A stretch of DNA of 64,000 nucleotides, from NCBI GenBank assembly GCA_003173895.1, contig PJMG01000006.1:2820-66819 (forward strand). The letters are read 5' to 3'. How positions within the stretch are numbered: position 1 is the first letter of the stretch; each line of letters begins with the position of its first letter. The stretch comes from Candidatus Levyibacteriota bacterium. GTDB lineage: Bacteria > Patescibacteriota > Microgenomatia > Levybacterales > UBA12049. A model generated the notes under the pieces. The model made no database searches and was not told the DNA's origin. It saw nothing but the letters and a program-made list of their open reading frames with translations. Below are positions 3,202-5,613 of this stretch, piece by piece. A program made the position numbers and the translations under genes.

Positions 3202-5613
3202 ATGCTTTCATTTTTAAATCGCGCTATTAGATATCTTTTTTACGCACTTTTCTTTTTAATACCACTAACATTTTGGGGCTCTACATCAGAACTTTTTGAG
3301 TTTAATAAAATGTGGCTGACTTTTATCATCACTATTCTTATAGCAGCCTGCTGGATTTCTAAAATGATCATTACTAAGAAATTTATCTTTAAAAGAACTC
3401 CACTAGATATTCCTATCGGTCTTTTTCTACTTTCCCAAATCATCTCTACTATCTTTACTCTAGACCATCATGTTTCACTTTGGGGTTATTATGGCCGTTG
3501 GAACGGCGGATTGTTATCAATTATCTCTTATATCTTTTTATATTATGCCCTGGTTAGTAATATATTGAATGACAAGCAAGGGGTGGTGAACCTGGAAGGG
3601 ATCCCGATGGCGCGCAACGATTTAATTACGAAGCAATTACCTAGTGAGCACCAGCGGGAGGGAAAGGTTCGACAGGACCCCGCATTAGCAGGACCCGCGT
3701 TCTTAAATCAACCTTTTGTCTTTAACATCCTAAAAATTTCTCTTCTTTCAGGCTTTATCGTCTGCCTTTGGGGTCTTCCAGGACATTTCGGTTACGATCC
3801 TACTTGTTTATTGTTCCGTGGCCATTTGGATGTTTCCTGTTGGACCGCTGATTTTCAACCTAAAATTAGAATTTTCTCTACTCTTGGCCAACCCGATTGG
3901 CTCGCTGCCTATTTAGCTATTCTTATTCCAATCTCTTTATTTTTCGCACTTTCAAATGCTTATTCATTTTTCACCCGCGATAAAAGATTAAAAATAAATT
4001 ATCAACCTCTACTCTATTCTCTTGGCTATTCGCTCTTAACCATGTGTTACTTCATAGCATCTATCTATACTCAATCTAAAAGCGGCTTTATAGGCATTAT
4101 TTTAGAACTAGTCATTTTCTGGTTAATAATTTTAATTAAGCAAAATAAAGATAAACTGTTCTTTAAATTATTTGTAATTTGTTTCTTTACCATTGGTATT
4201 ATTGTTTTCTTAGTTGGTTCTCCATTCGCTCAAATTAATAAATTTACTTTTCCTAGCTTACAGAATATTTTTAGTTCTAAGTCAACATCTACCACTCATC
4301 CATCAACTGGTGGAACACAACCAATTGCTGCTCCCGCTGGCGAGCTCGGCGGAACAGACAGTGGAAAGATCAGACTTTTCGTTTGGGAAGGAGCCGTAAA
4401 AGCTTGGCTAGCTCATCCTATTTTCGGTACAGGAGTGGAAACATTCGCCTTCGCATACTATTTATATAGACCAGCCGGACATAATCTAACTTCTGAATGG
4501 GATTACCTTTATAATAAAGCTCATAATGAATATCTCAACTATCTCGCCACCACTGGAGCCTTCGGCCTTTTAACTTACTTATCAATCCTGAGTATCTTTA
4601 TTTTTTTAATCTTAAAACAAATCTTTAGAAACAAGTCCATTATTGTCATTCCCGCGAAGGCGGGAATCTATGCAGAGGGATCCCCGATCAGGTCGGGGAT
4701 GACAAAAGAAACTCTACTTATAGCATTACTATCTTCCTATACCGGTATTCTCATCACTAACTTTTTTGGTTTTTCAGTAGTTATAGTTAATATTTATCTA
4801 TTTCTAATCCCCGCTTTGTTTTTTCTATTTATTAAGCAAGCGGATTTTAATACAGATTCCCAACAACTAGGCAAACCTTTAGCTCTTTCTTCAGGACAAA
4901 TTTTCGCTATGATTATAACTTTCTTAATTGGTCTTTATCTTATTATTGTGTTGATAAATTATTGGACTGCGGATCAGGACTATGCTTATGGTCAGGGCTT
5001 AGATCATCTCAGCCTTTTTGATAAAGCTTATCCTTACCTAAAAAGTGCTGCTGATAAGAGACCTAGTGAACCTGTATTTAAAGACGAACTTTCTGTAGCT
5101 GAAGGCAGTTTAGCCTTAGCCGAAGCCCAAAATAATAATCTAAATCTAGCGAATACTTTTGCTGAGAATGCTATTAACACCAGTGATGAACTAATCACTA
5201 ACTATCCTAATGACATCATTTTTTGGAAAAGCAGAATTAGAATTTTCTACGCATTATCTGAAGTGGATAAAAAATATTTAGCTTATGCCTTACAAGCTGC
5301 CCAAGAAGCTAATAAATTAGCTCCTACAGATGCTAAAGTCTCATATAATTTAGGCGTATTATATGCCCAAAACGGCGATTTAGATAAAGCTATTTCTACT
5401 CTTAAACAGACTATCGCACTAAAAAAAGACTATTCTGATGCATATTTTGCTTTAGGTTTAGTTTATAGAACCAAAGCATTGGATAAGAATGGAAAATTGA
5501 TAGATAAGGAAGCAGAAGCCAATGCTGTTTATTATATGAAGTATATTTTAAACAACTTTGATCCAAATAATGCTGACGTTATAAAAAACCTCCAAAGTTG
5601 GGGCGAGCTGTAA
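3202..5613 (+). CDS. O-antigen ligase (Wzy_C)-like polytopic membrane protein with C-terminal TPR repeats; carries two in-frame GC-rich insertions
   Basis: Multiple TM helices; Wzy_C-like core (FVWEGAVKAWLAHPIFGTGVETFAFAY...HNLTSEWDYLYNKAHNEYLNYL); TPR-like C-terminus (YNLGVLYAQNGDLDKAISTLKQTIALKKDYSDAYFALGLVY). Confidence 0.8.
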   Translation: MLSFLNRAIRYLFYALFFLIPLTFWGSTSELFEFNKMWLTFIITILIAACWISKMIITKKFIFKRTPLDIPIGLFLLSQIISTIFTLDHHVSLWGYYGRWNGGLLSIISYIFLYYALVSNILNDKQGVVNLEGIPMARNDLITKQLPSEHQREGKVRQDPALAGPAFLNQPFVFNILKISLLSGFIVCLWGLPGHFGYDPTCLLFRGHLDVSCWTADFQPKIRIFSTLGQPDWLAAYLAILIPISLFFALSNAYSFFTRDKRLKINYQPLLYSLGYSLLTMCYFIASIYTQSKSGFIGIILELVIFWLIILIKQNKDKLFFKLFVICFFTIGIIVFLVGSPFAQINKFTFPSLQNIFSSKSTSTTHPSTGGTQPIAAPAGELGGTDSGKIRLFVWEGAVKAWLAHPIFGTGVETFAFAYYLYRPAGHNLTSEWDYLYNKAHNEYLNYLATTGAFGLLTYLSILSIFIFLILKQIFRNKSIIVIPAKAGIYAEGSPIRSGMTKETLLIALLSSYTGILITNFFGFSVVIVNIYLFLIPALFFLFIKQADFNTDSQQLGKPLALSSGQIFAMIITFLIGLYLIIVLINYWTADQDYAYGQGLDHLSLFDKAYPYLKSAADKRPSEPVFKDELSVAEGSLALAEAQNNNLNLANTFAENAINTSDELITNYPNDIIFWKSRIRIFYALSEVDKKYLAYALQAAQEANKLAPTDAKVSYNLGVLYAQNGDLDKAISTLKQTIALKKDYSDAYFALGLVYRTKALDKNGKLIDKEAEANAVYYMKYILNNFDPNNADVIKNLQSWGEL
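3577..3699. repeat. GC-rich ~123-bp element (family B, cgacaggacccc-type) inserted in-frame in the ligase-like gene
   Basis: ~60% GC island inside a ~30% GC gene. Shares aaggggtgg..ggaaggga and tcgacaggacccc blocks with intergenic copies at 24008-24053 and 26405-26430. Encodes a Gly/Ala/Pro/Arg-rich 41-aa stretch. Confidence 0.6.
4643..4706. repeat. GC-rich palindromic mini-element (family A-like) inserted in-frame in the ligase-like gene
   Basis: TTGTCATTC / GGATGACAA terminal inverted repeats flank two perfect GC hairpins (TTCCCGC-GAAG-GCGGGAA and ATCCCCGA-TCAGG-TCGGGGAT). Confidence 0.65.

What the first reader, a model, noticed from the sequence alone, without database searches (positions are those of the whole stretch)
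4643..4706. Second in-frame insertion in the same gene: two perfect GC hairpins flanked by TTGTCATTC / GGATGACAA inverted ends
The two hairpins are TTCCCGC-GAAG-GCGGGAA and ATCCCCGA-TCAGG-TCGGGGAT. They lie between 9-bp terminal inverted repeats that match the ends (TTGTCATYC ... GRATGACAA) of the intergenic family A elements. The element encodes IPAKAGIYAEGSPIRSGMTKE between TM segments. Two independent repeat insertions in one membrane-protein gene suggest these elements are, or were, mobile. It also suggests the loops of this protein tolerate them.
Basis: seen in the sequence. Interest (0 to 1): 0.75.

Follow-up and report, generated by a model that had tools for sequence, protein, structure and literature searches.

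The report
Mobile double-hairpin repeat inside a gene
A 61-base pair of small GC-rich DNA hairpins of a known, very widespread bacterial repeat type (the Neisseria dRS3/NTS and Rickettsia RPE-6 kind) has landed in frame in a membrane-protein gene of a candidate-phyla-radiation bacterium, adding about 20 disordered residues to a loop between two membrane helices.

Summary
Window 4644-4704 holds two perfect 8-bp hairpins in inverted orientation. Each is preceded on its own strand by the tag TGTC and followed by C. These are the only two matches in 64 kb to the published Ssn-related-motif (SRM) pattern, against 0.05 expected by chance. Arm 1 matches the 28-nt Neisseria NTS/dRS3 motif at 26 of 28 positions.

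By the criteria of Di Nocera 2013 it is a "head-head" heterodimer of CGTC/TGTC-tagged REPs. That paper equates this class with dRS3 and RPE-6 and already reports in-frame intragenic dimers.

It is an insertion. The closest orthologues lack about 20 residues here, and 73 of 75 other orthologues with this loop extracted lack such a dimer. AlphaFold gives pLDDT below 50 for residues 479-499, between two confident helices.

Two further independent in-frame dimers of this type occur in orthologues (L122/L207 and L203). In related CPR contigs (L125, L128) a 97-aa GIY-YIG Ssn-like gene is flanked by the same TGTC hairpins.

No Ssn gene, Y1 transposase or target-site duplication was found in the window. 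Mobilisation by an Ssn-type ssDNA nuclease is therefore inferred, not shown.

Verdict: a new member of a known kind, of modest interest.

The parts
3202..5613 (+). Host gene: 803-aa polytopic membrane protein with a Wzy_C (O-antigen-ligase-like) domain and C-terminal TPR repeats.
   Evidence: ORF. Pfam PF04932 at E=2.7e-18, plus TPR families. More than 5000 homologues; those that carry names are from Levybacteria, Microgenomates or Patescibacteria.
4644..4671 (+). Arm 1: TGTC tag, 8-bp stem ATTCCCGC/GCGGGAAT, loop GAAG, then C and tail TAT. This is the NTS/dRS3-type (CGTC-1-like) unit.
   Evidence: Matches the SRM pattern. Matches 26 of 28 positions of the NTS motif CGTCATTCCCGCGMAVGCGGGAATCYRG quoted. 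Scores 36.8 bits with unit model R2, of whose seed alignment it is part.
4669..4678 (.). 10-nt spacer TATGCAGAGG between the two arms. It overlaps their 3-nt tails.
4676..4704 (-). Arm 2, read on the - strand: TGTC tag, 8-bp stem ATCCCCGA/TCGGGGAT, loop CCTGA, then C and tail CCT. The stem differs from that of arm 1, so the pair is a heterodimer.
   Evidence: Matches the SRM pattern. Scores 38.2 bits with R2, of whose seed alignment it is part.
4642..4710 (+). Codons 481-503, IVIPAKAGIYAEGSPIRSGMTKE: the peptide contributed by the element plus its flanking codons. It forms a disordered loop between helices 446-475 and 498-518.
   Evidence: Translation. AlphaFold pLDDT below 50 at residues 479-499. 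Gap in P0002 and P0003 in alignment A1.
12384..12413 (-). Variant 'family A' unit, TGTCATCCTGAGCCTCAGCGAAGGATC. It has the same head and tail but an imperfect stem, and lies between genes. The partner unit is at 12304-12360 (+).
   Evidence: R2 gives 21.1 bits, E=0.0035.
13083..13111 (-). Variant unit (TTGTCATTCTAAGTGAAACGAAGAATCTC), intergenic. A second unit lies at 13173-13204 (-).
   Evidence: R2 gives 18.0 and 15.1 bits.
21952..22009 (-). Long-form variant unit with a GC-rich internal insert, lying in the 148-bp gap between the Nramp gene (20592..21866, -) and the FMN_red gene (22015..22605, -).
   Evidence: R2 gives 13.7 bits.
40682..40727 (.). Variant unit CGTCATCCTGAGTTTCAACGAAGGATCT (+) followed by a bare inverted head, ..CAGAATGACAA. 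Intergenic.
   Evidence: R2 gives 17.6 bits.
42041..42117 (-). Variant long unit (42041-42094) followed by a bare head (42107-42117). Intergenic.

Best explanation
The element is a non-autonomous palindromic repeat. It consists of two inverted 'tagged REP' hairpins with the TGTC tags facing outwards, the head-head (HH) arrangement. The class is known under several names: CGTC-tagged REPs, dRS3/NTS in Neisseria, RPE-6 in Rickettsia, and Ssn-related motifs (SRM).

Shown:
- It was inserted into the DNA that encodes a short loop between two transmembrane helices of a Wzy_C/TPR membrane protein.
- It is open in the reading frame in use and adds a whole number of codons. It is therefore read through and adds about 20 disordered residues.
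- It belongs to the class by sequence and structure.
- Independent insertions of this kind occur in orthologues.
- Ssn-like genes flanked by such hairpins exist in related CPR genomes.

Inferred:
- The copy persists because that loop is length-tolerant, while copies landing elsewhere in the gene would be purged.
- When the DNA is single-stranded, during replication, repair or uptake, each arm folds into its 8-bp hairpin. The hairpin, the GTC on its 5' side and the C on its 3' side are the features that small GIY-YIG Ssn nucleases recognise, cutting a few nucleotides upstream.
- Dimers like this one are the gene-less derivatives of hairpin-ssn-hairpin units and are, or were, spread by that enzyme acting in trans. 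This parallels MITE/IS and REPIN/RAYT pairs.

Unknown: how the element is copied and pasted.
For: Class membership:
- Both arms match the SRM pattern, and they are the only two matches in 64 kb against 0.05 expected.
- Arm 1 differs from the NTS motif at 2 of 28 positions.
[quoted passage not shown] GTC and the following C are present in both arms.
- Tag variant TGTC, 8-bp stems starting with AT, loops of 4 and 5 nt and HH organisation all fit the CGTC family definition. That paper also reports intragenic dimers encoding 20-30 aa and genes hit twice.

Insertion:
- The segment is absent in P0002 and P0003 and in 73 of 75 other orthologues.
- It is 59% GC in a 32% GC window.
- The loop is disordered in the model.

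Recurrence and mobility:
- Other in-frame HH dimers occur in the same loop of L122/L207 and in a different loop of L203.
- A 64-nt HH heterodimer lies inside a 663-aa ORF of a Patescibacteria MAG, L077.
- The exact hairpin was found in more than 120 genome stretches from most bacterial phyla. Among the 200 SRM units in them there are 46 HH pairs, 2 TT and 4 HT.

Cognate enzyme in the lineage:
- In L125 and L128 a 97-aa GIY-YIG gene is flanked by TGTC hairpins with the heads outward, and L125 has three more HH dimers within 8 kb.
- Those proteins score E~1e-47 against an Ssn-like profile.
- The L125 protein has thousands of relatives, and the named ones are from Levybacteria, Microgenomates or Patescibacteria.
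Against: - No Ssn-like GIY-YIG ORF is present in the 64-kb window (best HMM E=0.16), and the rest of the genome is not available.
- Only two canonical units occur in the window. The other units are degenerate variants, so this genome may hold only relics.
- No empty site in a close relative could be found, so the exact boundaries and any target duplication are undefined. No duplication is apparent.
- Transposition by Ssn has never been demonstrated. The 2025 paper shows ssDNA cleavage and an effect on transformation, not mobility.
- An HH dimer would be cut once on each strand at opposite ends, which is not in itself an excision mechanism.
Confidence: 0.75

Rival explanations
1. It is a REPIN-like doublet mobilised by a Y1 (RAYT / IS200-IS605-type) tyrosine transposase rather than by a GIY-YIG nuclease.
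For: - The architecture is that of a REPIN: two inverted hairpins, each with a 5' tetranucleotide tag, and no target duplication.
- Y1_Tnp genes (PF01797) occur in related CPR contigs. In L204 and L133 they lie directly downstream of the orthologous gene.
Against: - The tag is TGTC/CGTC, not GTAG. The survey of these repeats found no transposase association for CGTC repeats.
- The Y1 genes in L204 and L133 are flanked by other sequences, not by TGTCAT hairpins of this type.
- No Y1 homologue is present in the window.
- In L125, L128 and L026 it is the GIY-YIG gene that the hairpins flank.
Confidence: 0.1
2. It is a classical MITE: a deletion derivative of a DDE-transposase insertion sequence that is recognised through its 9-bp terminal inverted repeats and inserts with a target-site duplication.
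For: It is short, has inverted ends and belongs to a repeated family. An IS1595 transposase is present in the closest relative's contig, L121.
Against: - No direct repeat flanks this copy, nor the 46 HH dimers inspected.
- The 'TIRs' are the tag plus the base of each hairpin, and are conserved across phyla together with the hairpin.
- No IS with these ends was seen. In the window, searches covered only Ssn-like GIY-YIG and Y1 homologues plus a Pfam scan of ten ORFs; the window was not screened for DDE transposases.
Confidence: 0.03
3. It is not an insertion with a life of its own. It is a locally evolved or exapted feature, either an mRNA structure that slows translation between transmembrane segments or a functional peptide loop.
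For: - The two hairpins are perfect despite the AT-rich background.
- The loop follows a transmembrane helix, where a translation pause could plausibly aid membrane insertion. This is inference only.
Against: - The same 24-nt hairpin occurs in unrelated contexts in more than 120 genome stretches and more than 120 viral contig stretches.
- The peptide is absent from nearly all orthologues and is predicted to be disordered.
- Orthologues carry quite different palindromes in the same loop.
- Exaptation after insertion is not excluded.
Confidence: 0.05

Closest known systems
CGTC-tagged REPs, family CGTC-1/-2 (Di Nocera, De Gregorio and Rocco 2013, PMC3733652). CGTC-1 is equated there with Neisseria dRS3 and with RPE-6 of Rickettsia conorii.
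   Same: - An unpaired tag, with TGTC named as a frequent variant of CGTC.
- 8-bp stems that begin with A-T and T-A.
- Loops of 4 and 5 nt.
- A short tail that starts with C.
- Head-head dimers predominate, and heterodimers are common.
- Intragenic dimers encode 20-30 aa, and some genes are hit twice.
   Different: - The host is a CPR/Patescibacteria bacterium, a group not named in the sections of that survey read here; its abstract counts 8 phyla in all and its CGTC section 5 phyla for CGTC repeats.
- The tails are TAT and CCT rather than the consensus CCA.
- Copy number in the 64 kb available is very low: two canonical units.
NTS / Ssn-related motifs and the SsnA GIY-YIG ssDNA nuclease (Nat Commun 2025, PMC11893778).
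   Same: - Arm 1 matches 26 of 28 positions of the NTS, and both arms match the SRM search pattern.
- The GTC upstream of the palindrome and the C after it are present; the three upstream nucleotides govern cleavage and that C governs binding.
- Related CPR contigs show the hairpin-ssn-hairpin arrangement described there.
   Different: - No ssn gene lies within the window.
- The role shown in Neisseria is restriction of incoming NTS-bearing ssDNA during transformation, which is untested here.
- A search of that paper's main text finds no mention of Patescibacteria and no hit for 'Candidat'; whether it covers intragenic in-frame copies was not checked.
Rickettsia palindromic elements (RPE), reviewed in PMC10969869.
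   Same: Palindromic repeats inserted in frame into functional genes, which add peptide segments at permissive surface or loop positions.
   Different: - The classical RPE-1 is about 150 bp and is one long hairpin. This element is 61 bp with two separate short hairpins.
- The host is a different phylum.
REPIN / RAYT systems (GTAG-tagged REP doublets).
   Same: Two inverted tagged hairpins act as a unit, there is no target duplication, and the presumed intermediate is single-stranded DNA.
   Different: The tag is TGTC rather than GTAG. The associated gene in relatives is a GIY-YIG nuclease rather than a Y1 HUH transposase.
FtrB small RNA of Francisella tularensis (Rfam RF02748; PMC3091763).
   Same: FtrB contains GUCAUUCCCGCGUAGGCGGGAAUCU followed by a second GAUCCCCG... 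hairpin. The window element aligns to it over both hairpins.
   Different: - The score of 36.4 bits is below the gathering score of 66.
- FtrB is an intergenic transcript of 115 nt with extra 5' and 3' parts.
- The resemblance is most simply explained by FtrB containing a repeat of the same class.

Membership tests
CGTC-tagged REP superfamily (PMC3733652) | An unpaired terminal tag, CGTC or its variants TGTC/CCTC, at one end of the palindrome. | tested here: met
   TGTC precedes both stems on their own strands.
CGTC-tagged REP superfamily (PMC3733652) | A stem of 8-9 bp starting with complementary A and T residues, and a loop of 4-5 nt. | tested here: met
   ATTCCCGC/GCGGGAAT with loop GAAG, and ATCCCCGA/TCGGGGAT with loop CCTGA.
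CGTC-tagged REP superfamily (PMC3733652) | A short 3' tail fitting the consensus CCA. | tested here: inconclusive
   The tails are C-TAT and C-CCT. Only the first C fits. Other CPR copies mostly have CTAT or CCAG.
CGTC-tagged REP superfamily (PMC3733652) | A repeated family within the genome, mostly organised as head-head dimers. | tested here: inconclusive
   The HH arrangement is met. Only 2 canonical units and at least 5 variant units occur in the 64 kb, and the rest of the genome is not available.
Ssn-related motif (SRM) / NTS (PMC11893778) | A match to the pattern HGTCWYN(0-2)YYVSBRHN(0-5)WNVSBRGN(0-2)RNCYNB. | tested here: met
   Both arms match, 2 hits against 0.05 expected.
Ssn-related motif (SRM) / NTS (PMC11893778) | An associated ssn (cd10448-type single-domain GIY-YIG) gene in the same genome, often flanked by the motif. 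| not testable with these tools
   None is present in the window, and the source contig is not retrievable. The arrangement is present in related CPR contigs L125 and L128. The gene family is common in Levybacteria and Microgenomates.
Ssn-related motif (SRM) / NTS (PMC11893778) | Cleavage of the single-stranded form a few nucleotides upstream by the cognate Ssn. | not testable with these tools
   This needs biochemistry.
Rickettsia palindromic elements (functional analogy) | A palindromic repeat inserted in frame in an otherwise intact gene. | tested here: met
   The ORF is intact, the insert is absent in orthologues, and it forms a loop in the model.
REPIN/RAYT | A GTAG tag and a RAYT (Y1) gene flanked by the repeats. 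| tested here: not met
   The tag is TGTC. No Y1 homologue is in the window. Y1 genes in related loci are not flanked by these hairpins.
DDE-type MITE | A target-site duplication and a parent IS with the same terminal inverted repeats. | tested here: not met
   No direct repeats flank this copy or the other HH dimers inspected. No parent IS was seen.
FtrB sRNA (RF02748) | A score at or above the Rfam gathering threshold of 66 bits. | tested here: not met
   36.4 bits.

The most novel reading that the evidence does not exclude
CPR/Patescibacteria genomes carry a live mobile system. The autonomous form is a 97-aa GIY-YIG Ssn nuclease gene bracketed by TGTC hairpins. Its gene-less head-head dimers transpose through single-stranded DNA.

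Under this reading, the three independent in-frame insertions in one membrane-protein family would be the first comparative evidence that Ssn-associated hairpins are true transposons and not only nuclease target sites. The near-identical hairpins in most bacterial phyla, in a DPANN archaeal MAG and in viral contigs would then point to horizontal spread of a minimal replicator that also reshapes protein loops.
Probability: 0.35. Interest if true: 0.6.

Novelty: new member of a known kind. Interest (0 to 1): 0.35.

Why it matters
1. It extends the CGTC-REP / SRM class, including in-frame intragenic copies and what looks like the cognate GIY-YIG gene, to the candidate phyla radiation. The library search found no description of this.
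2. The recurrent insertions in one gene family are natural evidence bearing on an open question from the 2013 and 2025 papers: whether, and by what, these hairpins are mobilised.
3. For annotation, GC-rich peptide islands such as VIPAKAGI...SGMT in CPR proteins are footprints of nucleic-acid parasites, not protein features. They inflate apparent divergence.
4. The CPR units have varied stems but constant tag and tail. Together with their Ssn homologues they are candidate new specificities for ssDNA-cutting tools.

Tried and rejected
- The generic repeat finder on the whole window was swamped by AT-rich chance matches.
- The source contig could not be retrieved by exact protein look-up, and the cluster look-up gave no name or accession. 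The lineage is therefore inferred from named homologues only.
- No orthologue is closer than 59% identity, so no nucleotide-level empty site or boundary could be defined.
- No GIY-YIG gene was found in the window by motif regex, phmmer or a five-sequence Ssn profile. No Y1 transposase was found.
- Rfam: FtrB is only a sub-threshold hit, and nothing else overlaps the element.
- A target-site duplication was looked for by eye at 46 HH dimers and not found.
- The TTGTCATTC at 3567-3575 (- strand) has no hairpin behind it. It may be a relic or chance, and it is not part of the first insert.
- I first took the Y1_Tnp gene of L204 to be flanked by TGTC heads. On inspection the flanks are a different short repeat, so this was dropped.
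- The GIY-YIG gene near an HH dimer in L114 resembles the Ssn-like proteins only weakly: phmmer E=1.5e-4 against the L096 protein and E=2.9e-07 against the five-sequence Ssn profile. It sits in a duplicated tRNA context, so it was not used as evidence for Ssn.
- A structure prediction of the insert-less protein was not attempted, because an edited sequence is not accepted by the tool.
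Full report
**What is there**

The window is AT-rich, 31.7% G+C. ORF 3202..5613 (+) encodes an 803-aa polytopic membrane protein with a Wzy_C (O-antigen-ligase-like) domain and C-terminal TPR repeats. It has thousands of homologues. Every named one among the best hits comes from Levybacteria, Microgenomates, Saccharimonadales or the 'Patescibacteria group'. I therefore infer that the organism is a CPR bacterium. No name could be recovered for the contig itself.

At 4644-4704 the sequence reads TGTC-ATTCCCGC-GAAG-GCGGGAAT-C-TATGCAGAGG-G-ATCCCCGA-TCAGG-TCGGGGAT-GACA. 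These are two perfect 8-bp hairpins in inverted orientation. Each is preceded on its own strand by TGTC and followed by C.

- The segment folds better than shuffles: z = -3.1 as RNA and -4.6 as DNA.
- It is 59% G+C.
- It is read in frame as IVIPAKAGIYAEGSPIRSGMTKE from residue 481.
- The end motif TTGTCATYC occurs 8 times in the window against 1.03 expected.

Two small corrections apply: the first stem is 8 bp rather than 7, and the '9-bp inverted ends' are the tag plus the base of each stem.

**It is an insertion in a tolerant loop**

- In an alignment of 24 orthologues, the two closest (P0002 and P0003, 59-63% identity) are about 20 residues shorter exactly here.
- I fetched DNA for three orthologues and then for 80 more from metagenomes. 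Among 75 other orthologues whose loop could be extracted, 73 have no TGTC-hairpin dimer there.
- Across the 76 sequences (window plus 75 orthologues) the loop varies from 20 to 63 residues in the extracted window. In 29 of the 76 it is 40 aa or longer, and many of these carry other palindromic or low-complexity inserts.
- An AlphaFold model (mean pLDDT 75.5) puts residues 479-499 below pLDDT 50, between confident helices 446-475 and 498-518. The first insert (residues 124-169) behaves the same way.

**What kind of element it is**

- An Rfam search gave a sub-threshold hit to FtrB, a Francisella small RNA. It hits because FtrB contains GUCAUUCCCGCGUAGGCGGGAAUCU followed by a second hairpin.
They came from Bacteroidota, all classes of Pseudomonadota, Chloroflexota, Planctomycetota, Nitrospirota, Neisseria, Rickettsia, several Patescibacteria and one Nanoarchaeota MAG. 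A viral-contig scan also reached the limit.
- The literature identifies the motif. In Neisseria it is the dRS3 repeat, redefined in 2025 as the 28-nt NTS, CGTCATTCCCGCGMAVGCGGGAATCYRG. The NTS is the recognition site of SsnA, a 94-aa single-domain GIY-YIG nuclease. SsnA binds the hairpin only as single-stranded DNA and cuts a few nucleotides upstream. The three bases before the palindrome govern cleavage, and the C after it governs binding.
- Arm 1 matches the NTS at 26 of 28 positions. Both arms have GTC upstream of the palindrome and the C after it.
- That paper's degenerate 'Ssn-related motif' pattern matches the window exactly twice, at the two arms, against 0.05 per shuffle.
- Earlier, Di Nocera et al. 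(2013) classified the same repeats as CGTC-tagged REPs. The tag is often TGTC, stems are 8-9 bp beginning with AT, and loops are 4-5 nt. Head-head dimers (tags outside) predominate and are often heterodimers. CGTC-1 is equated with dRS3 and with RPE-6 of Rickettsia conorii. Intragenic dimers encode 20-30 residues, and some genes are hit twice.
- The window element meets every one of these criteria except the tail consensus.

**Evidence for mobility and for the likely enzyme**

- In the 120 genome stretches there are 200 SRM units, arranged as 46 head-head pairs, 2 tail-tail and 4 tandem. No flanking direct repeats are visible.
- In CPR stretches the tag is TGTC, as it is here. L077, a Patescibacteria MAG, has a 64-nt HH heterodimer inside a 663-aa ORF.
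- Within the host gene family there are two further independent in-frame HH dimers.
  - L122 and L207 (Levybacteria-type orthologues) carry TTGTCATCCTGAATTTATTTCAGGATCT...GAGATGCTGAAACTAGTTCAGCATGACA in the same loop. This is almost identical to an element nested in a Rickettsia endosymbiont locus.
  - L203 carries an NTS-type dimer in a different inter-helix loop, translated as GLSFPRRRESIFNKKLDPAWRDDKK.
- In L125 and L128, which also encode orthologues of the host gene, a 97-aa GIY-YIG gene is bracketed by TGTC hairpins with the heads outward. L125 has three more HH dimers within 8 kb.
- These proteins score about 1e-47 against a profile of Ssn-like proteins that are flanked by NTS in proteobacterial loci. 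The L125 protein has 4112 relatives at E<=1e-10; the named ones among the best 120 are from Levybacteria, Microgenomates or Patescibacteria, and many lie on very short contigs.
- The window itself has no such gene and no Y1 transposase.

**Relation to the intergenic 'family A' units**

These are units of the form TGTCATYCTGAG...CGAAGRATCT. They lie at about 12304-12413, 13083-13204, 21952-22009, 40682-40727 and 42041-42117, all between genes.

- They share the head and tail but have imperfect or interrupted stems, and they fail the SRM pattern.
- A covariance model built from 26 canonical CPR units scores the two arms at 37-38 bits (both arms are in the model's seed alignment). It scores the family A units at 14-21 bits.
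- They are therefore variants or decayed relatives.

**Mechanism: shown and inferred**

- Shown: membership of the class by sequence and structure, insertion into a variable disordered loop, independent recurrences, and Ssn-like genes flanked by such hairpins in related CPR genomes.
- Inferred: that the arms extrude as hairpins in single-stranded DNA and are substrates of an Ssn-type nuclease encoded elsewhere in this genome or formerly present, and that this enzyme drives spread of the gene-less dimers.
- Unknown: the copy-and-paste chemistry. One cut per strand at opposite ends does not by itself excise a dimer, and transposition by Ssn has not been demonstrated.

Rivals are a Y1/RAYT-driven REPIN (0.1), a DDE-type MITE (0.03) and a locally evolved regulatory hairpin or functional loop (0.05). 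The evidence against each is given in the rivals section.

**Side finding: the first insert**

- The first insert in the same gene (window 3577-3684) is a different element. It is a GC-rich long hairpin of 90-108 nt that is conserved at the nucleotide level in the same loop of at least 10 orthologues.
- The reading frame of its 3' half differs between lineages.
- 13 of its 22 predicted pairs show compensatory changes. 95% of cells are paired against 80% in shuffles and 39-47% when the partners are slid.
- A covariance model finds further copies outside this gene, both intergenic and inside other ORFs, in L131, L151, L155, L188 and L202. It also finds a 45-nt miniature copy at window 24007-24051.
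- It has no Rfam match.
- So the gene carries in-frame copies of two unrelated dispersed palindromic families.

**Verdict**

What is new is the host lineage, the recurrent in-frame insertions in one CPR membrane-protein family, and the hairpin-flanked Ssn-like genes in related CPR genomes. Interest is modest (0.35). The element is a new member of a known kind.

Noticed in passing
window 3577-3684 (+), inside ORF 3202..5613; a miniature copy at window 24007-24051 (+): The first insert of the gene is a separate, apparently undescribed GC-rich palindromic family with ends ..GGGGTGRC.../...GRCAGGACCCC.. and purine tracts GGAAGGG / GGGAAA. It sits in the same loop in at least 10 orthologues, in different reading frames. 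Covariation is strong: 13 of 22 pairs have compensatory changes and 0 of 500 shuffles reach the observed score. Model R1 finds other copies, intergenic and inside other ORFs, in L131, L151, L155, L188 and L202. It has no Rfam hit.
   Followed up: partly
window 5737-5806 (+) and ORF 5809..6426 (-): A DUF3800-IX RNA motif (RF02968, 61.1 bits against a gathering score of 36.8) lies directly beside a DUF3800 protein gene (PF12686, E=3.7e-17), just downstream of the host gene.
   Followed up: partly
window 3567-3575 (-): A TTGTCATTC head motif lies two bases upstream of the first insert, with no hairpin behind it. It may be a relic of a lost unit or a chance match.
   Followed up: no
Loop 2 of the orthologues, e.g. 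L131, L176, L182, L189, L206 (FLISNQIPN..LEIRSIRN); L125, L128; L139; L183; L204, L205: The same inter-helix loop is a hotspot in the CPR gene family. About a third of orthologues carry other, unrelated palindromic or low-complexity inserts there, and some recur across distant orthologues.
   Followed up: partly
L109 591-724 and 1641-1770 (Rickettsia endosymbiont), compared with L122 4353-4423 (Levybacteria-type contig): In the Rickettsia endosymbiont, NTS-type HH dimers enclose a nested inner dimer, GTCATCCTGAATTTATTTCAG.ATCT...GATGCTGAAAC.AGTTCAGCATGACA. It is almost identical to the in-frame dimer in the CPR orthologue, which suggests cross-phylum sharing of whole dimers.
   Followed up: partly
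L204 3569-4249 (-) and L133 5570-6319 (-): A Y1_Tnp (PF01797) gene of about 226 aa lies immediately downstream of the orthologous Wzy_C/TPR gene in two CPR contigs. In L133 it is flanked by a 12-bp-stem hairpin. Homologues also occur in L198 and L186.
   Followed up: partly
L114 about 1093-1160 and 1909-2166 (Moraniibacteria MAG): A 66-nt NTS-type HH dimer lies about 750 bp upstream of an 81-aa GIY-YIG gene. The gene sits between a duplicated 5' part of a tRNA-like sequence and the full copy, which looks like a homing-type insertion.
   Followed up: no
Viral-contig loci L208-L287 and beyond: The exact NTS-type hairpin is present in more than 120 stretches of IMG/VR viral contigs, some with many copies (for example L222 with 13). 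These may be vectors, or may be prophage calls that include host DNA.
   Followed up: no
L041 1508-1535 (Nanoarchaeota MAG): A canonical TGTC NTS-type unit lies inside a 584-aa ORF of a contig binned as a DPANN archaeon. Mis-binning is not excluded.
   Followed up: no
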